Virus record (IMG/VR): IMGVR_UViG_3300034095_001343
Coordinates: 32,001 to 96,000 of that record
DNA: 64,000 nt
From: a virus
Direction: 5' to 3' (one strand)
Part shown: positions 7,575 through 57,241 of the stretch, piece by piece
Layout of the letters: each line of letters starts with the position of its first letter
Numbering within the stretch: position 1 is the stretch's first letter
Made by a program: the position numbers and the translations under genes
Notes under the pieces: model-generated
Seen by the model: the letters and a program-made list of their open reading frames with translations, nothing else
What the model was told of the DNA's origin: nothing
Database searches by the model: none

Positions 7575-7813
7575 TACTTCATTTTACTTGAAGCAATACT
7601 ATTAAGTTCTTTTACTTTTTCAACTGCCATTTTTTTGACATCTGCCATAAGTTTAGAATCTTTTTGAATCTCAACAGCTCTTTGCAGAGTACTCATTGCA
7701 GATTCAATTTCCCATTTTCTTTGTTCTGCTTTACCACCAAAAAGGGAAATACCAACTGAAGAACTTTTCTTAGTTGGTGTTGATTTTTTAGTTGTTGATT
7801 TTTTAGTTGCCAT
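7574..7813 (-). CDS. Small basic helical phage protein
   Basis: Lys/Ser/Thr-rich N-tail followed by KWEIESAMSTLQRAVEIQKD. TAATG coupling at both ends. Confidence 0.65.
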   Translation of the reverse strand: MATKKSTTKKSTPTKKSSSVGISLFGGKAEQRKWEIESAMSTLQRAVEIQKDSKLMADVKKMAVEKVKELNSIASSKMK

Positions 7814-8076
7814 TACTTCTTAGTTTTATAAGTAAGAGCTTTAGTTTTAATAGCTCCACCCATTTTCTTTTTTTCAGATAATCTGATTTTGCGGTCTTCA
7901 ACTTTAGCTGCTCTACCTAAAAGTCTATCAGCTTTTTTATCTCTACCTTCATCTACAGCTTTATTTCCTTTACTAACAAGCTCATTTTCTTTTTTTTGCA
8001 GTCTTGCTATTTTTTTTATAGGATTTTTTGCACTATCAGACATTCCACCCATTTGCATTTTTTTTATTGTTTTCAT
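7813..8076 (-). CDS. Small Lys-rich protein with two MxMGG/KKMGG motifs
   Basis: KKMQMGG near the N-terminus and KKKMGG near the C-terminus flank a charged helix. Confidence 0.7.
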   Translation of the reverse strand: MKTIKKMQMGGMSDSAKNPIKKIARLQKKENELVSKGNKAVDEGRDKKADRLLGRAAKVEDRKIRLSEKKKMGGAIKTKALTYKTKK

Positions 8077-13040: not shown

Positions 13041-13358
13041 TTAATAACTATTTAAAGTGGATCTTTTCCAGGTATTTAATGCTACGCAAATATAAATAAA
13101 ATTTGCATCAATTTTAATATCTCCTGGTTGTCCAGAAGATGTTGATATACTAACAGTGCCTTGTGAAATCTTTGTAGAAGGAATGGCAGCTATATCAGAA
13201 AGCTTAGCTAAACGTACACTTCTATAAGGAACTGGTGAAGCAACACCTACCATATCAGGTTCTTCATGAACTCCAACCACAAAAACATCATTGGCTTTAA
13301 GTTCTTTAACGTATTGCTTCTTTTTTAATAATAAAAGTATATCTGTTAAAATATTCAT
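13041..13358 (-). CDS. Short tail-fibre-like protein
   Basis: N-terminus MNILTDILLLLKKKQ resembles the 845-aa fibre N-terminus. Ends with the fibre-tip-like GQPGDIKIDANFIYICVALNTWKR. Confidence 0.6.
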   Translation of the reverse strand: MNILTDILLLLKKKQYVKELKANDVFVVGVHEEPDMVGVASPVPYRSVRLAKLSDIAAIPSTKISQGTVSISTSSGQPGDIKIDANFIYICVALNTWKRSTLNSY

Positions 13359-13660
13359 TTCTTATAACCATTTATTCTAGAAGGCATGCTACCACCAATT
13401 TGTTTCTTTTTTAAGTTTTTCATATCACCACCACACTTATAACAAGGTTTTGGCATATTACCTCCCATTCTCATCTTCTCTACAAAATCTTCCGACATGT
13501 CAATGGTACCACCCATTTGCATAAGTTTACCAAGAAACTTTTCACCTCCCATTTTCTTAAAGCCCATTTTATTACGGACTTCAGTTGGAAGTTTGCCTAA
13601 GCTTTTTTCTTTTCCAGTAGGAACATTTTTAAGTTCCGAACCCATTTTGTATTTTTTCAT
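13355..13660 (-). CDS. Small Lys/Met/Gly-rich protein made of repeated xxxGG motifs
   Basis: FKKMGG, LMQMGG, KMRMGG, CYKCGG, KKQIGG, plus KYKMGS near the N-terminus. Confidence 0.7.
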   Translation of the reverse strand: MKKYKMGSELKNVPTGKEKSLGKLPTEVRNKMGFKKMGGEKFLGKLMQMGGTIDMSEDFVEKMRMGGNMPKPCYKCGGDMKNLKKKQIGGSMPSRINGYKK

Positions 13661-13670
13661 TGTTTTGATT

Positions 13671-13820
13671 TTAATATATATCTAAGGTCAAAGTTATAAA
13701 TAATAAATAAAATGTCAAAGTAAAAAATGGTTGTTCTTCAGTTGGATTAACTGTATCCCACCCTAAAGCAAATCTATCATGAGGCCAATGAAAAGCTATT
13801 TCTAAAATAAAATTTGTCAT
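13671..13820 (-). CDS. 49-aa hydrophobic beta-rich protein
   Basis: MTNFILEIAFHWPHDRFALGWDTVNPTEEQPFFTLTFYLLFITLTLDIY fills the gap exactly. Not in the ORF track. Confidence 0.6.
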   Translation of the reverse strand: MTNFILEIAFHWPHDRFALGWDTVNPTEEQPFFTLTFYLLFITLTLDIY

Positions 13821-13823
13821 AAA

Positions 13824-13973
13824 TTATCTACCTTGACTTCTATAAGGTTTTTTATAGAGTTTACTATTTTTATTCTTACTATTTTTTGTTTTACTATGAA
13901 CACCAGGTCTGGAAATCTTTGGACGTGTCTTAAAAGTAACAGAACCTAATGATGATTTTTTACTTGCTGCCAT
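13824..13973 (-). CDS. 49-aa basic protein ending KKPYRSQGR
   Basis: MAASKKSSLGSVTFKTRPKISRPGVHSKTKNSKNKNSKLYKKPYRSQGR. The RPGxHSK...YxxQG ending is common in small phage late proteins. Not in the ORF track. Confidence 0.7.
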   Translation of the reverse strand: MAASKKSSLGSVTFKTRPKISRPGVHSKTKNSKNKNSKLYKKPYRSQGR

Positions 13974-13975
13974 TT

Positions 13976-14176
13976 TTATTTTCTTTTAATATTTTTCCAC
14001 ATAGCAGCTGCAGCCACTTTTTTTCCTGCCTCTTCTGATCCATATTTCTTAGATGCTTTGGCTGCAATTTTTTCAAAGGTCTTACCTTTTTTACCAATAT
14101 CTTTACCAGCTCTAGCAGCTTTAGCAACACTACTTCTTTGTGATTTAGTAGTTCCTGAAGATGGTTTATTTTTCAT
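13976..14176 (-). CDS. Small Lys/Ala-rich basic protein
   Basis: KAARAGKDIGKKGKTF.KIA..A...YGS.EAGKKVAAAAMWK. Confidence 0.7.
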   Translation of the reverse strand: MKNKPSSGTTKSQRSSVAKAARAGKDIGKKGKTFEKIAAKASKKYGSEEAGKKVAAAAMWKNIKRK

Positions 14177-15492: not shown

Positions 15493-15538
15493 AAAGAGCT
15501 GTGCAATTCTGTAAGGATATACTGCACAGCTCTTTTTT
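15493..15538 (+). terminator. Intrinsic-terminator-like hairpin just upstream of nrdB
   Basis: Perfect 13-bp inverted repeat AAAGAGCTGTGCA (15493-15505)/TGCACAGCTCTTT (15523-15535) running into a T-tract. Confidence 0.65.
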
Positions 15539-15560
15539 ATATAGAAACAATAAAACAAAT

Positions 15561-17522: not shown

Positions 17523-17526
17523 AAAT

Positions 17527-43513: not shown

Positions 43514-46009
43514 TTATTTGCCAATTTGTCCAATATAAAAAGGAAAAATTGTTTCTTTTATTTCTGTACCTTTTCTTGATTTAGATTGTTGAGCTTTTCC
43601 TGGATTATAAGAATAACCATATCCTTGCGGCATATTAGTATACTCTTTTTGTATATTAGTCTCTTGAGGTACAGCAACAGATTGAGTGATTATACCTTGA
43701 ATCAATTCTGCTGTTGGTTCAATACCAGCTGCTTTTAACATTCTTGCAGTTTCTGCATACTGCTTAATTTTTGACATTGGATCTGGTAAAGGTGCAGGTT
43801 CAAATGCTTTACCGCTAAACTGACCAATCATACCGCCAGTAGTGGGATCAATTTGATAATAATCTTGAATAGAATTTAAGTTGTAAGTATTAGCCCTATT
43901 AGTAATAGCATTAGACATTAACTGAGCATACTGTTCTCTATCAAAGTTCTTTTCGTCCATATAGTTTTGTAAAACAGCTTGTGTATCATCATACTCTCTT
44001 ACAACTCTATCTCGTCTTTCTCTTTGAGTTGCTGCATCCATTTGAGCTTGCATAGCCAAACCTTGATTTATGGTACTTACATTCCTTTGATTTACTCTAC
44101 CCACTTCATTAGCAATTGCTTGAGCGGCTTGACCTTGAGCTTGCGCAGTTCTAGCAGCTAAAGCTTGAGGACCACCAAAAGCCCCAGCACCCATAGTCTG
44201 AATACCTAATTGTTCATTAATAGCAGCAATACCTCTAGTGGGTTCTTCCAATACATATCCTAAATCAATATTATTTACTGCAGGTTGAAAAGGAAAAAAC
44301 ATATCTCGTTCCCTAGCGGCAACAGCATTTAACTGAAGCAAGTCTTGTAACCACCATTCTGCATTTGGTCTTCTTGCCGACTTTGGTGTTTCAAATTGTT
44401 TTATACTTTTTTTAGGGCAGCAATTTTGTGAATATGTACCATCTTCACATGGACAACCTTCTGCTGGTGGTAAGAATGATTTTTTAACATCATATTTTAA
44501 TGGTCTTCTAGATGAAGTAAATGTACCATACTTACCATCAAAGTCTTTACCAGTTCCTGCACCAAAACCAAAGTCATTTCTTAAATCTGTTGTAAGATCA
44601 AGTTTTTGTTGTTCAGTAAGTTCATTATAACCAGCTGCTTTTAACTTAGCATTAATATCATTTACTGACTGAGGAATATATTCATTGTTAACCCAAGCTT
44701 GAAATTTTAAAACTTCAGGATTTTTATATTTTTCATCTGCTGCAGGTTGATATGTTTCTAATGATGCAATTAGATCAGATGCATTTGGATATATTTGTCC
44801 CCAATCTTTTAACCAGCCTTGTTCATTTAAAGAAGCATCACCATATCTACCAGGTAATTGCTTTTGATTTTTTACTTCAGAACGTTGAACATCAGAATAA
44901 GTTCTTTCACCCACATTTTTAAAATCAATTGCAATATTACGATCCTCATATTTCTTTATGATATTAGGATCTACAGCAATATTTCCTTTTGACTGTGTTT
45001 TTTTAGCAGGTGTATTATCAGGTTGCTTTGTTCTAGTTTCTACTGGAGGTTGTTCAAATGTCGTTGGAACATTAGTTGTTTCAACTGGTTTACCTATAAG
45101 TCTTCCTGGTAAATAATAGTTATTAGGTTCTTCTTCCTCATATGTTGATTCATCTGCATCTTGTGCTTTTCTTAATTCTTTACCATACCTACCCATTTCC
45201 ATTTCTTCAGGAGATGGTTGTTGAGCCATCTGTTGTTCAGAAGCTTGTGCTTGTTGCATCATTTGCTGAAGCATCATTAATTTTTGTTGTTGTTCTGGAG
45301 GAAGAGATGCAATGGCTTTTTGTTGAGCTTTTTCTTGAGAAATTCTCTCAACCTTTGCTGTAAAATCAATTGGATCAATTCCTTGTGAAGCTAAATAAGG
45401 ATATGCCGTAACTGGTACACCCTCTTCAAAATCTTTCTTTGATTCTTGAACAAATGCAAGTTTAGATAAAGCTTTCTTATTCTTATCCATCATTAACTCT
45501 GCACTCTTTACTTGAATATCATCAGCATACTCATCTTTAATAGAACCATAGTAAGTATTAAGGTCATACTTTTTAGATATGGTAGCCGGTGTCATTTTTT
45601 TTCTAGAATTAATACCAAAAGCTTTTAAATCTGAACCACCTAACTTCATATCTTTAGTATCAGAAAATACAAAAGATTGTTCAGGAAGATTTAAAGGTAC
45701 ACCACCACTAGAATGTCTAGGTCCTTTAATATCATAAAGACCAAACAAACCATCATTATCTAAATCTGTAAGTACAGTTTCTCCACCTTCAGCTTCAATA
45801 TTAGCTTGTGTTCTTGGTACAGCATTTAACGTATGTCTTACATTTATATCTCTAGTTTGATTTTTTTTATTGGGATCTTTAACATTTGTAACTAATCCAA
45901 AATCAAACTGGTCTCCTGTAGTCATTCCACCTTGCTGCATCATACTGACAATCTTACCATTCTTTATAGTAAGACCAGGAGGTAAGCTATTAATTTTTAC
46001 TTTTGCCAT
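43514..46009 (-). CDS. Virion cargo protein (crAss-like EAEGGE...GPRHSSGG family)
   Basis: NIEAEGGET...GPRHSSGGVPL...VFSD...TPA conserved N-domain, Q/M-rich linker and Ala/Gln-rich helical C-terminus. Confidence 0.65.
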   Translation of the reverse strand: MAKVKINSLPPGLTIKNGKIVSMMQQGGMTTGDQFDFGLVTNVKDPNKKNQTRDINVRHTLNAVPRTQANIEAEGGETVLTDLDNDGLFGLYDIKGPRHSSGGVPLNLPEQSFVFSDTKDMKLGGSDLKAFGINSRKKMTPATISKKYDLNTYYGSIKDEYADDIQVKSAELMMDKNKKALSKLAFVQESKKDFEEGVPVTAYPYLASQGIDPIDFTAKVERISQEKAQQKAIASLPPEQQQKLMMLQQMMQQAQASEQQMAQQPSPEEMEMGRYGKELRKAQDADESTYEEEEPNNYYLPGRLIGKPVETTNVPTTFEQPPVETRTKQPDNTPAKKTQSKGNIAVDPNIIKKYEDRNIAIDFKNVGERTYSDVQRSEVKNQKQLPGRYGDASLNEQGWLKDWGQIYPNASDLIASLETYQPAADEKYKNPEVLKFQAWVNNEYIPQSVNDINAKLKAAGYNELTEQQKLDLTTDLRNDFGFGAGTGKDFDGKYGTFTSSRRPLKYDVKKSFLPPAEGCPCEDGTYSQNCCPKKSIKQFETPKSARRPNAEWWLQDLLQLNAVAARERDMFFPFQPAVNNIDLGYVLEEPTRGIAAINEQLGIQTMGAGAFGGPQALAARTAQAQGQAAQAIANEVGRVNQRNVSTINQGLAMQAQMDAATQRERRDRVVREYDDTQAVLQNYMDEKNFDREQYAQLMSNAITNRANTYNLNSIQDYYQIDPTTGGMIGQFSGKAFEPAPLPDPMSKIKQYAETARMLKAAGIEPTAELIQGIITQSVAVPQETNIQKEYTNMPQGYGYSYNPGKAQQSKSRKGTEIKETIFPFYIGQIGK

Positions 46010-46011
46010 TA

Positions 46012-47901
46012 TTATAATATTTGAATGTTAGCACCTGCTGCAATTAATTGAGCAATTGTGTCAGGATCTAAATCTATTTCATTTGAAAACTCGTCATCTA
46101 CAGTTTCACCACCAAACTGTCTCATGTACTCAACTCTATTATCTTGTTCAGCCAATCCTGTATTAACATCCCAAGTACCTTGTTTATTTAAAGGATCTTC
46201 ATAATAACCAAACATGTTATCAGCTTGTGTCATTTCATACAACCTTCCTTCCGCTTCTCTTGCTTTTTTGTTTTGATACATTTCATTTGCAAATCCAGCA
46301 CCTTGTACTGCAAGATTACCAATTTTTCCATAACCTTGCATAAATCTAGAATCCATAAATCTATTTAAATTACCAGCAAGTTTATTAGTAATATCTACTT
46401 TTGGTGCAGAAGGTTCGTTTGTTTGTGAAGGTAAAGAAGAAAGATAGTTTTCATATTCTTGATAATCTTGAAGTTCTTGACCTATCATACCTCTTCCTGT
46501 AGATTTTAACCATTCATCATAAGATAATTGTTGTTTTTCAATACCGTTTTCTGCAATTAAAAGATCACCACCATATTTCATAGAAGTTTGTTGTCTTACA
46601 TAATCATTATATAACTGACTTGCATTTGCACCACCTCTTATTATTGGATCTTCTATTATAAATTCTTGAAGCGTTTTTATCTTAGATGGTTGATCAACTA
46701 AATTAGTAGTATTAACAACAGGTGATTGGGTATTTCTAAAATTTGTTTGATTATATGTAGCTAATGGAAAATTAGATTGAACACCAAGATATAAAGGATT
46801 TGATGTATTACTTGTATTACCCGTAAGTGTATTTAATCCCATCATTGTTTCATACAAATATGGATTTTCTTGAGCACTTTTATATGATGATGCTTCACCA
46901 CTTGGATTAATACCTAATGAACCCATTCCTTCTTTTTGTGATCCAATCAACATATTTAAAGTTTTAGGATCAAATCTAGATTCCAAATCCCCTAATGATG
47001 TACTATTTTGAAGAAATTTTTCTAAATCTTTTTTTTGATTTTTTGAATATATAGAAGAACCTGGATCAATCTTTCTACTAGAAAATTGTCCAACATATTG
47101 ATTTTTATCTTTATCAAAATCAAATTGGGAAAATCTATTTACATCATCTTTATATTGTTGTTCAGTTCTTAGCTGATCTTTATTTCTTGCAGCATTATAT
47201 AAATCAGTGGGATCTCCAGCGTAAGTGTTTTCATCTCCAGGCGCAGTAGTAACTTTATAATTATAATAGGAAGGTCTTGCTTCTTTAGCTCTAGCTCTCT
47301 TAGCTTTAATATCTCTATAAAAACCCTTTTTCAATCCTGTATTTGGATCTTCTTTACCACCAAATAAATCACCAGCTGCTTCTGCTAAAAAAAATCCAGC
47401 ACCTGCAACATCACCTCTAGTACCAAGATCCATTGGTAAATAATTTGCCATTGGATTCCTAGAATAACCATTTTTTTCTTGTTGTAAAGCAAAGTATTGA
47501 TTAGCGGTTAAAGGAAACATTGACTCAAAACCTGTTTGTGCTTCTGGTAATGCATTACCAAACATACCAAAGTTTACATCTTCAGCTTCATCATATTCTT
47601 CCTCATAATTTGCTTCTTGATTATTTTCTAATGCTTCTTCTGATTCTTCTTCTGATTCTTCTTCTGGTTCAAAAAACTCATCTAACTCACTTGATGAAAT
47701 ACCAGAATCCATTAAGATTTCTCTAACAGTAGTTTCATCATAACCCTGATTAATAAGTTCTTGTGCTATTTGTTGAAAAGAAGCTCCCGAATCTAATAAA
47801 CTTTGAATCTGCTGAGTAATGGATTGTTGTCCACTTTCCATATCCTCACCACCTTCCTGCATATAAGATAAACTTTTTTTATTTAAATTTTTGTTGCTCA
47901 T
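46012..47901 (-). CDS. Putative virion cargo protein with multiple xxxGG motifs
   Basis: YMQEGG, SMKYGG, MRQFGG, EAQTG and IAENG motifs, an acidic N-terminal region, and a C-terminal ..I.QLIAAGA.I.IL. Confidence 0.6.
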   Translation of the reverse strand: MSNKNLNKKSLSYMQEGGEDMESGQQSITQQIQSLLDSGASFQQIAQELINQGYDETTVREILMDSGISSSELDEFFEPEEESEEESEEALENNQEANYEEEYDEAEDVNFGMFGNALPEAQTGFESMFPLTANQYFALQQEKNGYSRNPMANYLPMDLGTRGDVAGAGFFLAEAAGDLFGGKEDPNTGLKKGFYRDIKAKRARAKEARPSYYNYKVTTAPGDENTYAGDPTDLYNAARNKDQLRTEQQYKDDVNRFSQFDFDKDKNQYVGQFSSRKIDPGSSIYSKNQKKDLEKFLQNSTSLGDLESRFDPKTLNMLIGSQKEGMGSLGINPSGEASSYKSAQENPYLYETMMGLNTLTGNTSNTSNPLYLGVQSNFPLATYNQTNFRNTQSPVVNTTNLVDQPSKIKTLQEFIIEDPIIRGGANASQLYNDYVRQQTSMKYGGDLLIAENGIEKQQLSYDEWLKSTGRGMIGQELQDYQEYENYLSSLPSQTNEPSAPKVDITNKLAGNLNRFMDSRFMQGYGKIGNLAVQGAGFANEMYQNKKAREAEGRLYEMTQADNMFGYYEDPLNKQGTWDVNTGLAEQDNRVEYMRQFGGETVDDEFSNEIDLDPDTIAQLIAAGANIQIL

Positions 47902-47912
47902 ATTATACTACT

Positions 47913-47921
47913 AATATACGA
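47913..47921 (-). promoter_or_regulatory. Putative late promoter motif TCGTATATT
   Basis: TTATTCGTATATTAGTAG in the 44-nt gap, 11 nt before ATG 47901. The flanks resemble those at 15202. Confidence 0.45.
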
Positions 47922-47945
47922 ATAAATAAAACATTTTACTAATTA

Positions 47946-50900
47946 TTATAGAGTTACTACATTTGTCATTATATAATTTGGAACAGACATACCTGAACTT
48001 TTAGCATCTTTATAATATATTCTATTTAGTCTATCATAAGTTTTTTTAGCTTTACCTTCTTCAAGCGTTCCAATATAGTCACCGTTAATATATTTTTTGT
48101 ATATATCAAATGCAATTTCATTACCTGTCTGATATTTTGGTTGGTTTATATCACCACCATATTGTTTTATTACCATATTATAACCAGGATTACCTTTTCT
48201 TTTAAAATCTTGTTCATAATAATTTTTAAAATCTTGTTCCGTTAATCCTTCAGGATTAATACCATAATATTCATATCTACCATTATCTAAATGAATATAT
48301 TGAGCATCTTTATTTTTCTTTAAAAAATTATTTACTTTATTAACACCACTTTTTCCTGTATTAATATATGTAAACTCTGCTTTTCCTGTTGATGGGGAAT
48401 AAAGAATAAACTTTCCAGTATTAGGTGTATTTTGATAAATTGGATTTCCTTGTTTATCCAATAATCTCATTTCTTCACCATTTAATGTAGCTTTATCAAT
48501 ATTAATAGCACCGAATCTTCTTGGTACTATTTCTGTTTCAGCATTAAATTCATCAGCCTTTCCTACTTTAAATTTACCATCTTCTATACCATAAAAAGAT
48601 TGAATATCTTTTGAGGAATATTTTTTATCAGAATACGTATCACTTGCTACTAACCAATCTTTTGCTTTTCTGACTGTGTTATTTACATCTTCTATAAATT
48701 CTCCACCTATAATAATATCACCATCTGTCGTTTGATTAACTTTAGCAAAACTCATTGGTCTATTAGTTATATCAATAGTAGTATCTTGTGAACTAAGTCC
48801 ACCAGGCACACCTTGAATTCCTAAACTTTTTAAAGCTTTACTTCTTATTGCAGGGGGTGCCCACACTAAACTGTGTAGTCCTAATACACCAGGAAATGCA
48901 GTTCCAACCAATCCTGCAGTTACATAGTCAGAAGTTCTCCAATTTCTACCTCCATATAAAATAGGATTTATTTTACTTCTATTTCCTGTAACAAAAGCTT
49001 CTAAAAGATTTTCTTCTGCATAATTAGGTAAAGTCCAAGAATCACCATATTTATTTTTTGCATCTAAATGATCTTTTGTATTTTGTTTATAATAATCAGA
49101 GTTTTTATATGCCTCTATTTCTTCTTGAGTCAATTTACCTTTAGGGTATTTTTGTAAAGCTCCTTTAGTATCAAAAAATCCCGCTTGTTGTATGTTAGGA
49201 GATCCTGGTAGTTGAGTAGGTGTGTTTACTTGTTTATATCCTCTTAACCAATCTTCTTTTAATAATCTAGCTTGATCTAAAGGAATTTGATTTCTTGTAG
49301 TAGAGACAAGTTCGTTAATATTACGTACATCAGATAAACTGGATTTTGGTATTTCTGCAATATAACTTGTTCTATCTACTGGAGAAAAAACTTGTTTAAT
49401 TTCAGAAGGTTTACCTGGAATTGTTGATTCAACTTCTTGCCACGTCCATGTTGGTTTATTTCTACTATAGTCTTTAGCAATATTAATATCTGGTGACATA
49501 TACATGTCATTATAAAAAGATCCTTCAGGTGTTCTTATTAATCTAGATTCTAAAGCATCATCTAATCCAGTCCTTCCTATACCTCTATAATAAGCTTCGG
49601 GATTAGGTTTAAATGCCCAAGGATTAATTTTATAAGCATTTTTTAAAGGAGTTTGTGTTGTCAAAAACTGACCAGTACCTGCCAAAGGATTAACAAGATT
49701 ATTTACAAATTGTCCTGTTGTTTTAGCACCTAAACCTGCAAATGCTCCTATTGCTAAAGGTAAACCTATACTTAAAGCTGCTTCTCCATAATTGCCTTGT
49801 TGAAGGTTTAAAGGTACCCTTCCTATTCCTGATGCAAAGTCTCCAAACCATACTCCAGGATTTATTGCATCTGGTATGTAATCTGATTGTAATTTATCTC
49901 CTATTGCTTGAGTTTCTCTTGCAATAACTTCTGGAAAGTTTTGTAAAGTATATGGTATTTTCTTAGCTGCTTCTGCATCAGCTATTCTTGCTCTTCTTTC
50001 GTCTTCTTGTATTTTTCTTAACCGTTGTGCTTCTTGAACACTTTTAGCTACTTGTTGTTTAGATACACTTAGTGTTGCAGTTGATACTGGTTTTTTAAGT
50101 TCTCTTGAGTTATAAGTTCTTGATGTTGATTCTGATGCTGTTTGTCCATAATTAAAATCTGAAAAATTAGGTGGTATATATTTTCCTTTTTGAGCCATTA
50201 GTAATCCACCTAGTGCTTTTTTGTCTAAATCTAAAAGTTCTTTATTCCCTTTCAAATATAGTTTATTACCATTCCATCCTGATGTCAATTCATTATTTCT
50301 TGAAACACCATAATTACCATTATTACCTTCTACTTTTATTCCGTTATCTTGAAATAATTTAAAGTATTGTTCTTTTTCTTCTTTAGAATGATATGGTATA
50401 TTTTTTCCTTGAACGTTTATGTTTCCTAAAACTTGTTTTGGTATCGGTTCTTTATAAATAATAGGTTGAATAGGAGAATCGTACTCTGGTCTAATTTCCT
50501 GTTGTTTTTTACCGTTTTTAGTTACTATACTTGGATAAACAACAACTTTATTAGGTTTTTGTAATAACTCTTTATCTGTTTCTTTATAAAACGTATTTAT
50601 TAAAGAATTGTCAATATATGGTTTTTGTTTAGTTTTAATATAATCAAAAGATAAAGCATTTTTCCAATCTTCACCATATTGATAGTTATTTAAACTATCA
50701 TTATAAGCCTTAAATCTTGGGTCATTCTTATCATCTACATATATAGGTGTATTCTTTTTAGTTTCTTTTCCTATCTGAGCCATTGGTAGTTCAAACACTT
50801 GGTCACCGGGGAATTGATAATCAAATCCAGGCTGCATTAATTCTCTATTTCCAAGATTGTCTATACCTAAAATAGGTCCTTTTTTTAAAGGTTCTCCGTT

Positions 50901-51071
50901 TTTTTCTCTCATAGAAATATTCCCAGATGGAATAACGTTGTGGATATTATTTACATCTGGTGAATCATATCTATAACCATCCGTGGAAAAAACACCCGTT
51001 ACATAAGTAAACTGCTCATTAGGTCCTCCGGGTAAACCTCTTCTTTCAATATGATTAAACTTATCTTTCAT
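47946..51071 (-). CDS. Modular putative cargo protein with ADP-ribosyltransferase-like domain
   Basis: N-domain GYR.DSPD...I.M...G.DNLG...M.PG.DY.FPG..V.E.PMAQ.G, then modules separated by KALGGLLMAQKG and KQYGG...YQTG. Contains a TM-like segment and the ART-like YYRG...YMSP...A..Y...E...IP. Confidence 0.6.
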   Translation of the reverse strand: MKDKFNHIERRGLPGGPNEQFTYVTGVFSTDGYRYDSPDVNNIHNVIPSGNISMREKNGEPLKKGPILGIDNLGNRELMQPGFDYQFPGDQVFELPMAQIGKETKKNTPIYVDDKNDPRFKAYNDSLNNYQYGEDWKNALSFDYIKTKQKPYIDNSLINTFYKETDKELLQKPNKVVVYPSIVTKNGKKQQEIRPEYDSPIQPIIYKEPIPKQVLGNINVQGKNIPYHSKEEKEQYFKLFQDNGIKVEGNNGNYGVSRNNELTSGWNGNKLYLKGNKELLDLDKKALGGLLMAQKGKYIPPNFSDFNYGQTASESTSRTYNSRELKKPVSTATLSVSKQQVAKSVQEAQRLRKIQEDERRARIADAEAAKKIPYTLQNFPEVIARETQAIGDKLQSDYIPDAINPGVWFGDFASGIGRVPLNLQQGNYGEAALSIGLPLAIGAFAGLGAKTTGQFVNNLVNPLAGTGQFLTTQTPLKNAYKINPWAFKPNPEAYYRGIGRTGLDDALESRLIRTPEGSFYNDMYMSPDINIAKDYSRNKPTWTWQEVESTIPGKPSEIKQVFSPVDRTSYIAEIPKSSLSDVRNINELVSTTRNQIPLDQARLLKEDWLRGYKQVNTPTQLPGSPNIQQAGFFDTKGALQKYPKGKLTQEEIEAYKNSDYYKQNTKDHLDAKNKYGDSWTLPNYAEENLLEAFVTGNRSKINPILYGGRNWRTSDYVTAGLVGTAFPGVLGLHSLVWAPPAIRSKALKSLGIQGVPGGLSSQDTTIDITNRPMSFAKVNQTTDGDIIIGGEFIEDVNNTVRKAKDWLVASDTYSDKKYSSKDIQSFYGIEDGKFKVGKADEFNAETEIVPRRFGAINIDKATLNGEEMRLLDKQGNPIYQNTPNTGKFILYSPSTGKAEFTYINTGKSGVNKVNNFLKKNKDAQYIHLDNGRYEYYGINPEGLTEQDFKNYYEQDFKRKGNPGYNMVIKQYGGDINQPKYQTGNEIAFDIYKKYINGDYIGTLEEGKAKKTYDRLNRIYYKDAKSSGMSVPNYIMTNVVTL

Positions 51072-54000
51072 TATCTAAGAGATAAAAGTAATTTAGTGTT
51101 ATTTAACTTAAGAAGCATTTTCCTATTTCCAGAATTTTTTCTTCTTAAAATTAACTTGTTATAATAGTGTCTAAGTTTTTTTCTTTGTTCTTCGGGTTTT
51201 TGATAGTTTAAATTATTTGCATTAAGATCTCTAATGTAACCATTTAATCTTGTTATAAAGATTTCTTGCTCGCTGTTTGTAAACTCACCTCTATCATTTG
51301 TAATATCCCAAAACTGATTGAATCTATACTTTTGTTCTTCTTTTGAATAAAGTATTCTTATATCACTTGTTCCAATAATAGGATATTGAAGTATATTATA
51401 AGGATCTTCTTTAGGATTAAGTTCTAATCTTAAAAGTCCAGATACTTGTTCTGTATTATAAAGAATCGCTTCATCAAAGTTAAAATCAAGATCATGCCAT
51501 CTATCATCACCACAGCCATGATATAGATCCCCTTTATAAACATAAGACTCTAATTGATATTCAACACTTCTTACAGTGTTTACTATTTGTCCAGTGTTCT
51601 CAATTAGTTCTACTTCCCAAGGATAATCATCACCATAGTAATTTGCATAAAGATCACAACGATAATTGTGTCTCCAGATTGAACCAACTCTAAAACTTGG
51701 AGGAGTTGTTTCTAAACTAAAGTAATTACATATTAACGGATTCATATTTATATAATCAGGATCCCCATTAGGACCTGTCAAATATAAATTATCACACTGA
51801 CCTGTAGTGGTTGTTTGAGCCCAAGGAACAGGTGGTGGAGGACAATTACATGTTACCTTTCTACAAATAGGTGCGTAAGTACCTTGCCCATTTGGAAAAC
51901 ATTCACCGTTTGCTAATGTCCAACGAATAGGTGGAGTTGCTGTACTAGGATAAACTAATGTATATCCAGGAGGACAATTACATTCATAATTTTCACCACA
52001 AGTTTTTTCTATAACAGCTTCTGCTACAACGGCAATACCAGGTAAATCAACCCCTGAAACAGCAAACTGAAGCTGCGGTTGATCACAGGTGATTTCTTCT
52101 AGATATCCAGCTGTTGGTATTGGTGGATTATTTGGACTAGCATATACAGCCATTACAAATTGTTTAGCTGGACCAACACATGAACCACCTAGTGTAGATG
52201 ATTGATATCCGCAACCTACATCTAAACCCGGATATGTATTTGTATCTGTAACAAGAATAATATATTGTCTAAAGTTTGGTAAAGAACTTCTATCTCCTAA
52301 TTGTGAACTAACCTTTGCATTTAATCTATTTTCAGCAAAAGCAAGTGCAGGAGGAATTTCTGTTCCCCCCATTTGCCAGTTAGCTGTAAGCCATGTATTA
52401 ACTTGTGTAGCCGTTAATGTATTACTCATTGAAAATCCATTTGGATTCATGCTAACATTATTAAGAACAGGAGGTACAACGTTTGACCATGATGTAATAC
52501 CTATCTGAATAAAACCCCCTATTAACCCAGATTGAATATTAGAATTATTTATAAACTCTGTAACAAAAGTTAATTCAGCTTGACCAATTGGATTCGTGGG
52601 TCCTCCTGGTCCTCCTGTACTTCCAGATGTATCTACGGCAATAATAACATCAATAAGACATTCCTGCGGACCACCTGTTATTAAAGCTTCAATTTGATCA
52701 ACTGTAACTACAGCTGGTGCAGATTCATCAATTAATTTTTCACAGTCTCCTGTACTCGGATTATAGGCATATCCTGGAGGACAGTATGGTTCTTCAGAAT
52801 TAATTGTCTTAGTTGTTAAAAAATGATTAATGCTTGGAATAGTAAGTTCTGGGCACCAGTCATGAAATGAAATCCATGCTTTAGATTTTGGATCATATGA
52901 TACTGTCCAACAAGCATCATCAAAATAAAATGGATCTCCTAATTCAATTGAAATTTCTAAACCAGAAGGATATGTATATATAAATCTGTAACTTACAGGA
53001 TCAAACCGCATACCACTCTTGTATTGAGGTTTAACACTATAATCCTTTTTACAGAAATAAACAATATCATCATTAATATCATATACAGCTTGACAACCAA
53101 CCCCAATTACAGTATTATCAGCCAAAGGTGTTTCCTCTAATTCAGGAAACTCTCTTATAAGAACTGATGGTAAATATTTATTAAACCACCACTTCATACC
53201 TCTATTTGCAATATTCTCTAAACCATCTGCATATTGAAAAACTTTACCTTGAGCTTGTGATAAATAAAATAAACCAAGAGGTGTATTAATTATAGTTCTT
53301 GCACTTTCACAAGATCCATATTCATTAGGTAAATCTGAATTTGCAACATTTTGAAAAGGTTGCTCAAATAATCCACCATCACCTATAGTAATCTTAGTTC
53401 CAAGATCTGTTTGTAATGTATCAACTCCTTGAAACATCTGCGGAGACTGATAAGGAAAAAATATAATTGCTCCATTTTTATTTATAGGTTTAATTACACT
53501 AACCTTATCTTTAAAATCTTTATAGTTATTTGGTAAAAAAACTCTCCAAAAATCTTTTTTTGCTTCTTCCTGTGCTTGCAAAGAATATATAAGTCTCTTA
53601 GGGTAATAATCAAAACAAGTCTCTGCAATTTGAGGATTATAATCTCTTGTTTGTATTTCTCCAAATGATGTTAAGTTTGTAACAAATCTGCTTGCACTTA
53701 AAGAATAATCATACTTATAAAAATTATCTTCTTTAATAATTTCAGCATCAAATAAATCATCTACATTATTATATTCATAAGAATCATAATGTCTATCTTT
53801 TTTTCTATCTTCCCAATCTCTCTGTACTAAATTAATTTCAGATTCTGTAAAGAAATCTAATACACCATTACAATGAGTATACATATAAGCATATCTCATT
53901 GCAAATTTGGGATTTGGATCATTACCACTAAATAATGTAGCAAATACATTACAGCTATTTCCTCTATCCAAATAATACAAATCATTTGGTAAAAGACCAT

Positions 54001-57000
54001 CTGCACTTCCAGTATTCAGTGCGGAAGATATACCAAGCGTCATTATTGCATCAGCAAGTTTGGTAGTATCAAACTTCTGAGTATTCATCCAAAATCTTGG
54101 ATAAGGAATATTTACTCTTTTTAAATAGTTGTATGTATAACCATCAGGTTGACCAAATAAGAAATCAGAAAATATAGGCATTATCACCTTTTCTGTATAT
54201 CTACCCACATAAGTATCTCCTGAAAAAAATATTTCAGATCTGTATTTAAAGATATCAGGTTTGGTTGGATCTAAAAAATTAATACAGCCTCTCATAGGCA
54301 CCTGTTTAATTCCTTCTATTTGACCATATTGATTTTGAAAATTAAACTTAAGTGCTCCATATAACATGGAAACATCAGTAAGTCTACTAACACCCGGAGT
54401 CTCTAAAAAATTATTAGATGGTACAATGCTAGTAGCTGTTGCATTATATCCTCCTCCAATTACATATCTTGAAACATCAGTGACTGTCGGATCATTAAAT
54501 GTATTAGCAATTGATATTGCAACTGTTTTTGGTCTAAATAAATTATTAATTTTATATTGACTATCAAAAATTTGAAACGCTGATCCAATATAATTTTGTT
54601 CTTTTATTCTTGATCTATATCTATTTCCAAAAATTGTTGATGCATAATTAAATATATCAGCATGTGAATTATGTTTAAAAGCAAAATCAGATGGTTGAAC
54701 AAAATTATACATAAGATCAATAATTTCTTGAGCACCTTCTGCAATTTTTTGTCTAGCTGTATAAGCTCCTAGTAAACCTTGAATAAGACTAGGAAGTCCT
54801 CCTGTATTACTATCTAAATTAAATTCTTTTTCAAGACTACCACCTCTTATTAATGGTGATAAACCAAGAAGACTTTGAACAGTAGCTTGTTGAGTATTTG
54901 CAAGTTGTCTAACACCTGTTCCCGCTAAAAGGGCTCCAACGGCAAAAGCACTATCTGTAAGAATTTCTCCTGGGTTACCTAAAGTATTTATAGCTGTAAT
55001 AATTGGTGTGGCAAGGAGTACGTTTGCTGTTTGCTGAGGTAAAGTAAGGCCAGCACCTGCAGGGCCTGCAAAAGTCCAACTTGATGCATTTCCTGCTTCC
55101 CAAGTTGGAAATGCATAATTAATTTTATCTTTTCTAACACCCTGTATTGCATTAATTGCATAACCAATACCAATAATTCCAGATAGTATTGCAGCTACAT
55201 TTCTAAGTAATTTATATTGAGGATGTTGTTCAGATGCAATAAAATATCCTTCAGATTGACCGCTTAACTGACCATATATTCTAGCTTCATATGCATTTAA
55301 GAATGGTCTCTTAAACATCAACTCAGGTGAATGAAATGTAAAAACACTTTGTGAGTAACCAGTAATTGGTAAAAAACTAGCAACAGAGTTTGTTAAATCA
55401 TCACAACCATCAGTTCTTTTTGCAGGACCAACACCACTTGCACCATCATGAAAATAAATATCAGGTCTTAAATCATTGTAAGGATAGTTTGGATATAACC
55501 CTTGAATATTATTCTGTCCTTGAGGAATTGTATATTCCCGCATATTCCTAAACACACCCTTAGCTAAAATAGACTTAGCTCCTTCTCTTGATCCTCTTAA
55601 AATTTCATAACCAACAACATTAGGAATATATGTTCCATCATTAAATTTAGGTCTTCCTATATTTCTAAAGTCAACACCAAGAATTCTTATAGAATCAGAA
55701 GATTGATTATATAACCCCAACACTGGACTTTTTTCTTCAGTGGGCATTTTATGATGTCTAATTGGTTTACCACACAAATCAAATTGTTGATTTGTTGTAC
55801 CGCCAATGTTTACACCTGTATTAGGATCTACATATGTAGAGTTCCAAATTTCAGGTTTACTAGCTGGATATATTTCAGTTGATTGCCAGTATGCTAAGTC
55901 TCCTCGACCAACTATAATACCACCATCTGGTAAAGTCTGTGTAGCAAGAGATATTATAGTGGCTGTATTAAATATTTCAAAATTGTAATTAGGACCATCA
56001 ATAGTATTAATACCACCAGATAAACCTATCTCATTAACAACATTACCATATTGATCTTCTCCAGCTAATCTAGGAGGTCTACCTGGTATATGATAAGACT
56101 TGCTTTTTTCACCAGTATTATAAATCCATCTAATAAAAAATGAATAAACTTCATCTCTCAAAAAAGATGTTTTGTTACCACCTTTATAATAATAAGACTG
56201 AGGATATTCAGCAACAACCCATTGAACTTGAATTTGATTTGCAATAGGTTGGTAGTTAAAGTCAAACTGTTCAGTTGGACCTTGTCTTATCAAATAATCA
56301 TTTACAACATACATTGCATCTGATTTTTCATATGCAGGTTTTCTTGTAAATAAAACTGTAAAGTCAACACTTACAGTTGCTGGATCTATATAGTCTAAAC
56401 TAATAACAGATTGCTCTGTGCTATAAGTACCAATAACTTTAGCAACAATATTCTGCTGATTATTACTTAGTATTACAAGTTGATAATAGAAATAGTCTTT
56501 ATCAAGATTAGTTATTTCAATATTTAATGAACCAGCATTATTATCATGATTAAAAAGACTTTGTAAATTTGATATTCCAATATAATCAGTTACAACTTGA
56601 TCATTTTCCACATAAGCTAAAAATGCTTGATATGTACCGTTTCTTAATAAACCACCATCTTGAGCTCTTGTTAGTTTAATACAAGGTGTATCTACAACTG
56701 GAGCCAATCTTAATCTTTCACAATCTAAAACATCTGTATCAGCATAAATTACACAATCAGCTCCAGGAGGACTTACCACTTGCTGTACCCACGGTATATC
56801 ATCTGCATTTAATGTTCTTGATGGATTGTTGGAATCATCCCAATAAATTTGCCAAGTACAATCATAATTTTCTTTTGAGGCACCTATAATTAAATATTTC
56901 CTATTAAAATTTAAACATGGATTATTTACAATAGTTGTATAACTACAAGTACTTTCATCATAAAATCCAATTTCAGAATTTGTATCATCAGTGGAAAATA

Positions 57001-57241
57001 CATACCATTGATCAGCTCTTTTATGAATAAATCCAATTATAGTATATGGTACAATACCACACTGAAGATTTGCGGGTTCATTACCTATAACTCCAGTATC
57101 CCCATCAACTGAATTATTATATGCATTTCTTGCATGTGACCAATTTTCTTTTGGTTGAAATGAAGCAAATAAATCCTTCACCATACCTTTTATAAAGCTA
57201 TTAGTATCTATAGATGATGAATTTGAATATTGTTTAGCCAT
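51071..57241 (-). CDS. Tail muzzle / stabilization protein (crAss-like) with vWA insertion
   Basis: F.KGM.KD...A.N, CLNF, IYW.D..NP.R, RDEVYSF, IRHHKMP, FHSPE, GDTY, WTVSY...WISFHDW and LWRHN-like motifs. vWA DTSGS at ~52620. Confidence 0.8.
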   Translation of the reverse strand: MAKQYSNSSSIDTNSFIKGMVKDLFASFQPKENWSHARNAYNNSVDGDTGVIGNEPANLQCGIVPYTIIGFIHKRADQWYVFSTDDTNSEIGFYDESTCSYTTIVNNPCLNFNRKYLIIGASKENYDCTWQIYWDDSNNPSRTLNADDIPWVQQVVSPPGADCVIYADTDVLDCERLRLAPVVDTPCIKLTRAQDGGLLRNGTYQAFLAYVENDQVVTDYIGISNLQSLFNHDNNAGSLNIEITNLDKDYFYYQLVILSNNQQNIVAKVIGTYSTEQSVISLDYIDPATVSVDFTVLFTRKPAYEKSDAMYVVNDYLIRQGPTEQFDFNYQPIANQIQVQWVVAEYPQSYYYKGGNKTSFLRDEVYSFFIRWIYNTGEKSKSYHIPGRPPRLAGEDQYGNVVNEIGLSGGINTIDGPNYNFEIFNTATIISLATQTLPDGGIIVGRGDLAYWQSTEIYPASKPEIWNSTYVDPNTGVNIGGTTNQQFDLCGKPIRHHKMPTEEKSPVLGLYNQSSDSIRILGVDFRNIGRPKFNDGTYIPNVVGYEILRGSREGAKSILAKGVFRNMREYTIPQGQNNIQGLYPNYPYNDLRPDIYFHDGASGVGPAKRTDGCDDLTNSVASFLPITGYSQSVFTFHSPELMFKRPFLNAYEARIYGQLSGQSEGYFIASEQHPQYKLLRNVAAILSGIIGIGYAINAIQGVRKDKINYAFPTWEAGNASSWTFAGPAGAGLTLPQQTANVLLATPIITAINTLGNPGEILTDSAFAVGALLAGTGVRQLANTQQATVQSLLGLSPLIRGGSLEKEFNLDSNTGGLPSLIQGLLGAYTARQKIAEGAQEIIDLMYNFVQPSDFAFKHNSHADIFNYASTIFGNRYRSRIKEQNYIGSAFQIFDSQYKINNLFRPKTVAISIANTFNDPTVTDVSRYVIGGGYNATATSIVPSNNFLETPGVSRLTDVSMLYGALKFNFQNQYGQIEGIKQVPMRGCINFLDPTKPDIFKYRSEIFFSGDTYVGRYTEKVIMPIFSDFLFGQPDGYTYNYLKRVNIPYPRFWMNTQKFDTTKLADAIMTLGISSALNTGSADGLLPNDLYYLDRGNSCNVFATLFSGNDPNPKFAMRYAYMYTHCNGVLDFFTESEINLVQRDWEDRKKDRHYDSYEYNNVDDLFDAEIIKEDNFYKYDYSLSASRFVTNLTSFGEIQTRDYNPQIAETCFDYYPKRLIYSLQAQEEAKKDFWRVFLPNNYKDFKDKVSVIKPINKNGAIIFFPYQSPQMFQGVDTLQTDLGTKITIGDGGLFEQPFQNVANSDLPNEYGSCESARTIINTPLGLFYLSQAQGKVFQYADGLENIANRGMKWWFNKYLPSVLIREFPELEETPLADNTVIGVGCQAVYDINDDIVYFCKKDYSVKPQYKSGMRFDPVSYRFIYTYPSGLEISIELGDPFYFDDACWTVSYDPKSKAWISFHDWCPELTIPSINHFLTTKTINSEEPYCPPGYAYNPSTGDCEKLIDESAPAVVTVDQIEALITGGPQECLIDVIIAVDTSGSTGGPGGPTNPIGQAELTFVTEFINNSNIQSGLIGGFIQIGITSWSNVVPPVLNNVSMNPNGFSMSNTLTATQVNTWLTANWQMGGTEIPPALAFAENRLNAKVSSQLGDRSSLPNFRQYIILVTDTNTYPGLDVGCGYQSSTLGGSCVGPAKQFVMAVYASPNNPPIPTAGYLEEITCDQPQLQFAVSGVDLPGIAVVAEAVIEKTCGENYECNCPPGYTLVYPSTATPPIRWTLANGECFPNGQGTYAPICRKVTCNCPPPPVPWAQTTTTGQCDNLYLTGPNGDPDYINMNPLICNYFSLETTPPSFRVGSIWRHNYRCDLYANYYGDDYPWEVELIENTGQIVNTVRSVEYQLESYVYKGDLYHGCGDDRWHDLDFNFDEAILYNTEQVSGLLRLELNPKEDPYNILQYPIIGTSDIRILYSKEEQKYRFNQFWDITNDRGEFTNSEQEIFITRLNGYIRDLNANNLNYQKPEEQRKKLRHYYNKLILRRKNSGNRKMLLKLNNTKLLLSLR

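What the first reader, a model, noticed from the sequence alone, without database searches (positions are those of the whole stretch)
43514..51071. Recurring [MKYR]-[QKRA]-x-G-G / [AY]-Q-x-G motif punctuates the cargo proteins: candidate motif-directed processing or packaging system
Seen: three adjacent genes between the muzzle and ejection genes share little except a short motif at apparent domain boundaries. 831 aa: MMQQGG (GG 45926-45931), GRYGKELRKAQD, C-terminal SRKGTE. 629 aa: YMQEGG (47848-47853), GMFGNALPEAQTGFE, SMKYGGDLLIAENGIE (46567-46572), MRQFGGE (46108-46113). 1041 aa: PMAQIGKE, KKALGGLLMAQKGKY (~50185-50222), IKQYGGDINQPKYQTGNE (~48123-48168). The motif is often a tandem pair: xxxGG followed a few residues later by AQxG. 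It also makes up most of two tiny genes 30-40 kb away (13355-13660 and 7813-8076), for about 13 GG copies in five proteins. Established: di-Gly cleavage signals drive virion maturation in adenovirus ((M/I/L)xGG-x) and ASFV (GG-x), and T4 internal proteins use a short capsid-targeting peptide. Inference: the motif is either a maturation-protease site that cuts cargo polyproteins into ejectable units, or a head-targeting tag that lets any flanked module be packaged.
Basis: partly seen in the sequence, partly recalled or inferred. Interest (0 to 1): 0.85.

Follow-up and report, generated by a model that had tools for sequence, protein, structure and literature searches.

The report
Gly-Gly junction tag on phage cargo
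Three fast-evolving proteins that this crAss-like phage probably packs and injects, plus two tiny basic proteins, carry a conserved short peptide ending in Gly-Gly at their ends and module joints; I found no published description, and whether it is a docking handle or a protease site remains open.

Summary
The core tag is [M/Y/F/K]-[Q/K/R]-x-G-G. It occurs 13 times in five proteins (2,689 aa) and 6 times in the other 33,873 aa of the 115-kb genome; shuffling gives 1.3. All quoted coordinates are correct.

- The tag is selected at protein level and is conserved at aligned sites in homologues down to 36% identity.
- In relatives it occurs 62 times against 8.9±3.1 expected.
- It lies in predicted disordered linkers.
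- It coincides with homology breakpoints of a cassette-type protein.
- A fixed-spacing long form exists: Φ-K-Y-G-G-x-L-P-K-A-Q-x-G.
- Tiny basic modules are fused or split at the tag.

The genome is a divergent crAss-like phage (Crass_capsid hit). Pfam found no GG-type or prohead protease in the ORFs scanned.

In crAss001 cargo protein gp45, A[YF]GG sits at the edges of the docked segments, and one copy lies inside a continuous cryo-EM model, so it is uncut there.

My reading:
- Uncut docking or junction tag: about 0.4.
- Cleavage site: about 0.28.
- Passive hinge: about 0.15.

This scan had already noted the same tag in at least 19 other genomes. I found no paper describing it.

The parts
43514..46009 (-). 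831-aa cargo-type protein (P0001). Its highly conserved N-terminal domain (residues ~60-240) is followed by a variable middle and a conserved C-terminal tail.
   Evidence: The N-domain profile finds 1,708 cluster representatives. It has no Pfam or PHROG family.
45926..45943 (-). N-terminal tag MMQQGG (residues 23-28), after the conserved header MAKVKINSLPPGL.
   Evidence: G27 is nearly invariant and G28 invariant in 10 orthologues. The site is present in most of the 60 representatives listed out of 150.
45149..45193 (-). Long-form tag, degenerate here: GRYGKELRKAQDADE (residues 273-287).
   Evidence: It aligns with [AK][YF]G.E..L[PR]KAQ.G.E in orthologues.
43517..43579 (-). C-terminal degenerate tag SRKGTE plus the conserved tail ..PFYIGQIGK (residues 811-831).
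   Evidence: Relatives have R-K-K-G-G-x-L-K-K-Y-x-V-P-F-Y-T-G-K-x-G about 20 aa from the C-terminus.
46012..47901 (-). 629-aa cargo-type protein (P0002).
47848..47901 (-). N-terminal header MSNKNLNKKSLSY plus tag MQEGG (residues 1-18).
   Evidence: Q15 is invariant and G17 nearly so. The header L-N-x-K-S-L is conserved where the gene call includes it. AF2 gives pLDDT below 50.
47524..47550 (-). Half-tag LPEAQTGFE (residues 118-126).
   Evidence: Q122 and G124 are nearly invariant. The site lies in a disordered stretch, residues 79-164.
46537..46581 (-). Long-form tag MKYGGDLLIAENGIE (residues 441-455).
   Evidence: G444 is nearly invariant, and homologues carry extra inserted copies. pLDDT is below 50 for residues 440-456.
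46105..46125 (-). Tag MRQFGGE (residues 593-599), placed before the conserved C-terminal helix IDLDPDTIAQLIAAGANIQIL (46015-46077).
   Evidence: G597 is invariant; Q595 and G598 are nearly invariant. pLDDT is below 50 for residues 554-611.
47946..51071 (-). 1041-aa cassette-type cargo protein (P0003). The N-domain (1-~100) and C-domain (last ~60 aa) are conserved and the middle is hypervariable.
   Evidence: In L006 the gene is split in two, with a tag near each new end.
50763..50789 (-). Half-tag LPMAQIGKE (residues 95-103), at the end of the conserved N-domain.
   Evidence: Homology with relatives stops at residues 95-106. Relatives have YKRGG, KKEGG or AQxGxE at this position.
50178..50222 (-). 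Long-form tag KKALGGLLMAQKGKY (residues 284-298).
   Evidence: Conservation could not be judged because the middle of the protein is hypervariable.
48117..48167 (-). Tag pair KQYGGDINQPKYQTGNE (residues 969-985), at the start of the conserved C-domain.
   Evidence: Homology with relatives begins at residues 947-988. Relatives have MKKGG or FKNGG at this position.
13355..13660 (-). 101-aa basic protein (P0004) with five tags: KKMGG, MQMGG, MRMGG, YKCGG and KQIGG (13391-13558).
   Evidence: The family has a conserved core LGKLPTEVRNKMGFKKxGG and a variable number of tags.
7813..8076 (-). 87-aa basic protein (P0005). Tags MQMGG (8044-8058) and KKMGG (7855-7869) bracket a helical core.
   Evidence: The C-terminal K-x-G-G is nearly invariant in a widespread family. 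The N-terminal tag is specific to this lineage. Fusions to other tiny modules occur at the tag.
51071..57241 (-). 2056-aa muzzle-like virion protein upstream of the cargo genes. It is context only and is not enriched in the tag.
   Evidence: It matches PHROG virion structural families and is homologous to MS-verified phi4:1 gp042 and Fpv1 gp30. It has one regex hit, WQMGG.

Best explanation
The peptide is a short linear motif. Its core is [M/Y/F/K]-[Q/K/R]-x-G-G, and its long form is Φ-K-Y-G-G-x-L-P-K-A-Q-x-G-x-E. It marks the termini and inter-module joints of the modular, fast-evolving internal ('cargo') proteins of one lineage of crAss-like phages.

Most likely it is not cut. I read it as an exposed handle in a flexible linker that a common partner inside the assembling particle recognises. 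Candidate partners are the portal or tail-barrel lumen, an inner capsid or scaffold surface, or the very conserved N-domain of the 831-aa protein. Binding would tether each flanked module, so modules can be swapped, added, fused or split at the tag without losing incorporation. The tiny multi-tag basic proteins would then act as multivalent adaptors or fillers.

Shown: the tag exists, is enriched and conserved, lies in disordered linkers, coincides with module boundaries, has a fixed-spacing long form, marks fusion and split points, and is uncut at one analogous site in crAss001. Inferred: that it is read by a partner, which partner that is, and that it drives packaging.
For: - The motif is enriched and conserved.
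- All four sites of the 629-aa protein fall in linkers with pLDDT below 50, between folded parts. They are conserved islands in variable sequence, which is the signature of a recognition motif.
- The long form has fixed spacing: Q lies at +5 after GG in 30 of 73 cases. L, P, K, A, Q and G are conserved downstream, making a 13-16-residue unit longer than a usual protease site.
- Tags lie 6-28 residues from the N-termini and 5-35 residues from the C-termini, next to conserved terminal peptides.
- When the cassette gene is split in L006, both new ends keep a tag.
- Homology breakpoints fall within 10 aa of a tag in 18 of 75 cases against 4.7±1.9 expected.
- No protease of a GG-cleaving or prohead family was found.
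- crAss001 gp45 has A[YF]GG four times against 0.1 expected. The copies sit at residues 207-210, 425-428 and 560-563, at the edges of the docked parts 214-245 and 425-552. Residues 425-428 lie inside the continuous model.
Against: - No partner has been identified.
- The RNA-polymerase giants (5139 aa and 1909 aa), whose homologues are cargo in crAss001, nearly lack the tag. It is therefore not a general packaging code.
- The short form is conserved mainly on the N-terminal side of GG, as protease sites are.
- Up to six tags occur per protein, more than targeting needs.
- The equivalence of the crAss001 A[YF]GG sites to this tag is unproven: hhalign and PF25725 are both negative.
- Both AF2 models were of low confidence.
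Confidence: 0.4

Rival explanations
1. The tag is a cleavage site (GG|X type). A phage protease of unrecognised fold, or a host protease, would cut cargo precursors into modules, remove short N- and C-terminal propeptides, and chop the tiny proteins into basic peptides. This would parallel adenovirus pVII/pX/pVI or the ASFV polyproteins.
For: - The tag ends in Gly-Gly and is conserved on the P side. It resembles adenain, SUMO-tail (Q-x-G-G) and double-glycine leader sites; this resemblance rests on established knowledge and was not tested here.
- It sits in accessible linkers and at module boundaries.
- Tiny modules are fused or split at the tag.
- One 101-aa protein is almost all tags.
- Short N-terminal headers precede the first tag in three families.
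Against: - Pfam hits in the ORFs scanned include no C5, C39, C48, S49, S77 or S78 family (P0003 and the 1027-aa and 2056-aa proteins were scanned to E 0.1, with no protease hit). The only peptidase-like hit is DUF2201_N, in the replication module.
- P4 is Q/K/R, not M/I/L.
- NCBIfam finds no GG-leader model.
- The major capsid protein, the portal and the 424-aa protein between them carry no tag.
- The long form needs fixed downstream residues.
- Tags are retained at both ends after a gene split.
- The crAss001 gp45 site at 425-428 is uncut in the model, and the authors report no processing.
Confidence: 0.28
2. The tag is a passive structural joint with no dedicated reader. A Gly-Gly hinge with a helix N-cap would let modules fold independently and unfold one by one as they pass down the tail channel.
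For: GG is flexible. E, D or S often follows it, as in helix N-caps. The tag lies in disordered linkers that precede short conserved helices. It also sits at module boundaries.
Against: Simple linkers do not keep position-specific Q/K, an aromatic or Met residue, and a fixed L-P-K-A-Q-x-G across more than a thousand diverged clusters. A hinge 6-10 residues from a terminus, or a protein made mostly of hinges, has no obvious use.
Confidence: 0.15
3. The pattern is chance or a composition artefact of Gly/Lys/Met-rich low-complexity sequence, or a DNA-level signal.
For: The regex was chosen after seeing the data. The tiny proteins are K-, M- and G-rich.
Against: Within-protein shuffles that keep composition give 1.3 hits against 13 observed, 8.9 against 62, and 29 against 122. 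Sites are conserved at aligned positions in homologues of 36-68% identity. Codon use is ordinary.
Confidence: 0.02

Closest known systems
Cargo protein C1 (gp45) of Bacteroides phage crAss001 (PDB 7QOG, 7QOI, 7QOJ, 7QOL, 8CKB; Bayfield et al. 2023, PMC10172136)
   Same: The gene lies just downstream of the muzzle gene and is of similar size (842 aa against 831 aa). It is a virion-internal protein with short segments docked to the portal and tail barrel. It carries a recurring A-[Y/F]-G-G at the edges of those segments. Some homologues of the 629-aa protein have the same AYGGD form.
   Different: No sequence homology is detectable: blastp, hhalign and Pfam PF25725 are all negative. gp45 has a Gly-rich transmembrane N-terminus. 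The Q/K at -2 and the L-P-K-A-Q-x-G extension are absent. The published paper does not discuss the motif.
Adenovirus protease (adenain) sites (M/I/L)-X-G-G|X and (M/I/L)-X-G-X|G in core and cement precursors; ASFV pS273R G-G|X sites
   Same: These are Gly-Gly-ending signals in internal virion proteins, with two related site types. Small basic proteins also carry several sites. This comparison rests on established knowledge.
   Different: P4 here is Q/K/R, with the hydrophobic residue at P5 or P3. No clan CE protease gene was found. Cleavage has not been shown. The long form has conserved downstream residues.
Phage T4 capsid-targeting sequence of internal proteins, removed by the prohead protease gp21; phiKZ/SPN3US prohead-protease sites (S/A/G-X-E)
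   Same: A short terminal signal is shared by otherwise unrelated proteins that are packed in the head and injected. G-G-E and G-x-E often occur here.
   Different: No S77-type or other prohead protease was found. The tag is also internal, C-terminal and multi-copy. Capsid and portal proteins lack it.
Cargo-loading peptides of encapsulins and encapsulation peptides of bacterial microcompartments
   Same: These are short conserved peptides on flexible linkers at protein termini that dock diverse cargo to the inside of a protein shell; encapsulin shells have the HK97 fold. This is an analogy from established knowledge.
   Different: The sequences are different. Here the tag also marks internal joints, and no shell-binding has been shown. 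This comparison was not tested.

Membership tests
Short linear motif (SLiM) in a disordered region | A motif of 3-15 residues that forms a conserved island within variable or disordered sequence. | tested here: met
   Invariant or nearly invariant Q and G residues occur at all four sites of the 629-aa family, within segments of pLDDT below 50.
Short linear motif (SLiM) in a disordered region | The motif recurs in proteins that are otherwise unrelated. | tested here: met
   The five proteins share no significant similarity, yet together carry 13 tags.
Adenain-type GG cleavage system | M/I/L at P4, with G at P2 and G or X at P1. | tested here: not met
   GG is present, but P4 is Q/K/R/A. The hydrophobic or aromatic residue is at P5 or P3.
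Adenain-type GG cleavage system | A clan CE cysteine protease (C5, C48, C57 or C63) is encoded by the virus. | tested here: not met
   Pfam found none among the ORFs of 60 aa or more that were scanned. Sensitivity is limited to known families.
Adenain-type GG cleavage system | Cleavage after GG is observed in virions. | not testable with these tools
   This needs virion mass spectrometry.
Double-glycine leader / C39 peptidase (e.g. TIGR04149) | An N-terminal leader of 15-30 aa ending in GG that matches the leader model. | tested here: not met
   Headers ending in GG exist (residues 1-18 and 1-28). NCBIfam gives no hit even at E = 10, and position -4 is polar.
Double-glycine leader / C39 peptidase (e.g. 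TIGR04149) | A C39 peptidase partner is present. | tested here: not met
   The phage has no PF03412 hit. The host is unknown.
T4-type capsid-targeting sequence with prohead protease | A prohead protease gene (S77, S78, S80 or ClpP/S49) lies near the portal and capsid genes. | tested here: not met
   The portal-to-capsid region was scanned with PHROGs and Pfam, and the 424-aa ORF between them has no family or PDB relative.
crAss001 cargo protein C1 family (Pfam PF25725 crAss_CARG1) | A match to the family model. | tested here: not met
   The whole genome has no match at E <= 10. hhalign probability is 0.1.
crAss001 cargo protein C1 family (Pfam PF25725 crAss_CARG1) | The gene lies directly downstream of the ring and muzzle genes and upstream of the virion RNA polymerase genes. 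| tested here: met
   The gene order is 221 aa / 294 aa / 2056 aa / three cargo genes / 1027 aa / 5139 aa / 1909 aa. The last two are homologous to gp47+gp50 and to gp49.
Crassvirales-like phage | A crassvirus-type major capsid protein, portal and terminase. | tested here: met
   PF23898 Crass_capsid gives E = 4.7e-32. PHROG portal gives 6.5e-86 and terminase 5.4e-64. The portal is 21-30% identical to crassvirus portals.

The most novel reading that the evidence does not exclude
The Gly-Gly tags are true cleavage sites, read by a protease of a fold not yet recognised or by a host enzyme. On this reading, this large clade of crAss-like phages makes its injected payload as polyproteins and produces adenovirus-like small basic core peptides. 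That would be a maturation code new to tailed phages, and it would let any cassette flanked by the tag be released as a separate effector.
Probability: 0.25. Interest if true: 0.85.

Novelty: new variant of a known kind. Interest (0 to 1): 0.62.

Why it matters
How crAss-like phages load and eject megadaltons of internal protein is an open question; the crAss001 atlas resolved only small docked fragments of the cargo. A conserved tag at every end and joint of the modular cargo proteins, found in over a thousand sequence clusters, gives a concrete and testable handle on that question.

The tag predicts where modules begin and end. It explains how payload cassettes can be exchanged without losing incorporation. 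If the tag proves portable, it could serve to load foreign proteins into phage particles.

Tried and rejected
- **DNA-level signal.** I considered a Shine-Dalgarno-like GGAGG. It is rejected because the codons are mostly GGT GGT, as elsewhere in the genome.
- **Protease hunt.** I ran Pfam and PHROGs over the ORFs of 60 aa or more and the giant proteins, NCBIfam, and PDB phmmer on the 424-aa, 392-aa and 1027-aa unknowns. The only hit was DUF2201_N with VWA and a MoxR-like ATPase in the replication module.
- **Bacteroidetes GG-leader idea.** There was no NCBIfam hit.
- **GroES mobile loop.** From memory, the long form resembles the loop GG-I-x-L-P..K.K-P-Q-x-G, and the phage encodes a Cpn10. Five tag segments gave no Cpn10 hit at E = 10, the spacing differs, and the hydrophobic triplet is missing. 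I dropped the idea.
- **Homology of the 831-aa protein to crAss001 gp45.** blastp, hhalign and PF25725 were all negative.
- **AF2 of the 831-aa N-domain.** Mean pLDDT was 48.6, so I ran no fold search.
- **Phage database searches.** blastn and tblastn of the cargo genes against the phage collection found nothing.
- **Literature.** Searches found no description of the motif.
- **Flavobacterium phage Fpv1.** It has the conserved core domain but no tag enrichment, so the tag is limited to certain lineages.
Full report
**What the window is**

The window is genome positions 32001-96000 of a 114,929-bp viral record. The genome encodes a crassvirus-type major capsid protein (Pfam Crass_capsid, E = 4.7e-32), a portal and a large terminase. 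The portal is only 21-30% identical to portals of known crassviruses, Cellulophaga and Flavobacterium phages, and a Leptolyngbya phage.

The virion module runs on the minus strand in this order:
- 221-aa and 294-aa structural proteins;
- a 2056-aa muzzle-like protein, homologous to MS-verified phi4:1 gp042 and to Fpv1 gp30;
- the three genes of the finding (1041, 629 and 831 aa);
- a 1027-aa protein;
- a 5139-aa protein that unites homologues of crAss001 gp47 and gp50;
- a 1909-aa homologue of gp49.

This matches the crAss001 order of ring, muzzle, cargo C1/C2 and RNA-polymerase proteins. Virion location of the three proteins is inferred from synteny and from the phi4:1 proteomics annotation. 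It is not shown for this phage.

**Checking the observation**

With the pattern [MKRYFW][QKRM].GG, the five proteins (2,689 aa) hold 13 hits. The other 122 ORFs (33,873 aa) hold 6, giving an odds ratio of 27 and p = 3e-11. Shuffling each of the five proteins gives 1.28±1.14 hits.

The pattern was chosen after seeing the data, so I looked for independent support:
- **Aligned conservation.** In 18 homologues of the 629-aa protein (36-68% identity), all four sites are conserved at aligned positions. Q15 and G597 are invariant, and G17, Q122, G124, G444, Q595 and G598 are nearly so. Some homologues have extra inserted copies. The 831-aa family keeps its N-terminal M-x-x-G-G, a central [AK][YF]G.E..L[PR]KAQ.G.E, and a C-terminal R-K-G-x-E..PFYTGKxG.
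- **Related contigs.** In 11 related viral contigs, the three cargo orthologue groups hold 62 hits against 8.9±3.1 shuffled. That is 6.6 times the density of the flanking giant virion proteins.
- **Profile without the pattern.** A residue profile around every GG, made without the pattern, recovers M/Y at -3, Q/K at -2 and E at +2 in the cargo set only.
- **Wider family.** The N-domain of the 831-aa family finds 1,708 cluster representatives among 1.84 billion. In the best 150, the variable region beyond residue 240 holds 122 hits against 29±5.
- **Cultured phage.** Cellulophaga phage phi4:1 gp040, an MS-verified virion protein, has four F/Y-Q-x-G-G.

GG codons are ordinary, so selection acts at the protein level. 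The three large proteins share nothing else.

**Anatomy of the tag**

An AF2 model of the 629-aa protein (mean pLDDT 55) places all four sites in coil segments with pLDDT below 50, between better-predicted parts.

Tags lie near both termini of most of these proteins. They sit 6-28 residues from the N-terminus after conserved headers such as MAKIKINKLPxGF.. or ..LNKKSL... They sit 5-35 residues from the C-terminus before conserved tails such as ..PFYTGKxG or ..IDLDPDTIAQLIAAGANIEIL.

**Module boundaries**

The 1041-aa protein belongs to a cassette family. An N-domain of about 100 aa and a C-domain of about 60 aa are conserved, and everything between differs from phage to phage. The conserved N-domain ends at a tag and the C-domain starts at one. 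Internal homology blocks between relatives also start or stop at tags. For example, the homology between L007 and L010 starts at the YQYGG of both.

Of 75 clustered homology breakpoints, 18 lie within 10 aa of a tag, against 4.7±1.9 for randomly placed tags. One caveat applies: a shared conserved island can itself help to end or seed a BLAST segment.

In L006 the gene is split in two, and each new end keeps a tag.

**The tiny proteins**

The 101-aa protein family has a conserved core (LGKLPTEVRNKMGFKKxGG) followed by a variable number of tags.

The 87-aa protein is a member of a widespread family of 60-67-aa helical proteins whose C-terminal K-x-G-G is nearly invariant. The N-terminal MQMGG is an addition in this lineage. 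In other phages the same core is fused, at the K-x-G-G, to the 101-aa-type core or to a module like the neighbouring 61-aa ORF.

Small basic modules are therefore also joined or separated at the tag.

**What reads it**

I found no reader. Pfam and PHROG scans covered the giants and the other ORFs of 60 aa or more. They give no C5, C39, C48, S49/ClpP, S77 or S78 family. The only peptidase-like hit is DUF2201_N, with a VWA domain and a MoxR-like ATPase, among the replication genes.

The 424-aa ORF between the portal and capsid genes has no family or PDB relative. The capsid, the portal and that ORF carry no tag.

The adenain rule fails at P4. The Bacteroidetes GG-leader model does not match.

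**The solved analogue**

crAss001 cargo protein gp45 shows no detectable homology to the 831-aa protein. It does carry A-[Y/F]-G-G four times, against 0.1 expected, at residues 207-210, 330-333, 425-428 and 560-563.

The cryo-EM study modelled residues 214-245, bound to the tail barrel, and residues 425-552, bound to the portal. It reports no processing. The sites therefore sit at the edges of the docked parts, and the one at 425-428 lies within a continuous model, so it is uncut. This comparison is post hoc and its equivalence to the present tag is not proven.

**Weighing the readings**

For an uncut docking or junction tag:
- the long, fixed-spacing form;
- the terminal positions next to conserved end-peptides;
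- retention of the tag after a gene split;
- the absence of a protease;
- the crAss001 site.

For cleavage:
- the Gly-Gly end with conservation on the P side;
- several sites per protein, at module joints;
- fused and split tiny modules;
- a protein made almost wholly of tags.

Against a general packaging code: the RNA-polymerase giants nearly lack the tag.

I put an uncut recognised tag at about 0.4, cleavage at about 0.28, a passive hinge at about 0.15 and chance at about 0.02. The remainder is for something not considered.

**Earlier notes of this scan**

The same tag has been noted and followed up in at least 19 other genomes, with similar verdicts. I used those notes as leads only. The PF25725 lead was tested here and was negative for this genome.

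**Limits**

- Both AF2 models were of low confidence.
- No complex prediction or proteomics was available.

Noticed in passing
window 45731-45766 (-), residues 82-93 of the 831-aa protein: DLDNDGLFGLYD fits an EF-hand-type calcium loop (D-x-N-x-D-G-x-F-x-x-x-D). It lies inside the most conserved cargo domain (ExEGGE...GxRHxxGGVP...FxFSD). A profile of that domain also hits Cellulophaga phi4:1 gp040 (E = 4.5e-8) and Flavobacterium Fpv1 gp31 (E = 1.5e-7), and 1,708 metagenomic cluster representatives.
   Followed up: partly
L001 8145-9998 (residues ~549 on), L002 7956-9998, L003 7707-9998; P0023-P0025, P0142, P0155: Directly after some tags, relatives carry a His/Met-rich module, GG-E-F-x-P-H-M-M-[F/Y]-D-P-x-[T/S]-G-K-G-Y-K-A. 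It may bind metal. It is absent from the window's own 629-aa protein.
   Followed up: no
window 7162-8290 and 13355-14176 (-): This is a cluster of very small, highly basic ORFs. In other phages their modules occur fused in different combinations, joined at K-x-G-G: P0211, P0223 and P0226 fuse the 87-aa core to the 101-aa-type core, and P0303 fuses it to a module like ORF 8105-8290.
   Followed up: partly
window 24943-40362 and 19210-24939 (-): The 5139-aa ORF combines regions similar to crAss001 gp47 and gp50 (putative virion RNA polymerase) in one protein and carries DUF7831. The 1909-aa ORF matches gp49.
   Followed up: partly
G000 110335-110613 (-), outside the window (L012 14335-14613): A phage-encoded Cpn10 (GroES-like) co-chaperonin lies next to the large terminase gene (Pfam E = 9e-11).
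   Followed up: partly
G000 ~21.8-25.3 kb, before the window (L014): Genes for a putative metallopeptidase (DUF2201_N), a VWA-like domain (DUF2201) and a MoxR-type AAA_5 ATPase lie in the replication module. Homing-endonuclease-type hits (LAGLIDADG, GIY-YIG, NUMOD) occur in the same 32-kb stretch. I did not assign the hits to individual ORFs.
   Followed up: no
window 15501-19152 (+): Ribonucleotide reductase large and small subunit genes lie here, and the same batch gave a weak Intein_splicing hit (E = 1.5e-4). I did not determine which ORF carries it.
   Followed up: no
L018 (Flavobacterium phage Fpv1) 22158-26246: The cargo-position proteins gp31 and gp32 of this cultured relative show no tag enrichment, although gp31 has the conserved ExEGxE...GxSHExGGV core. 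The tag is therefore limited to certain lineages.
   Followed up: partly
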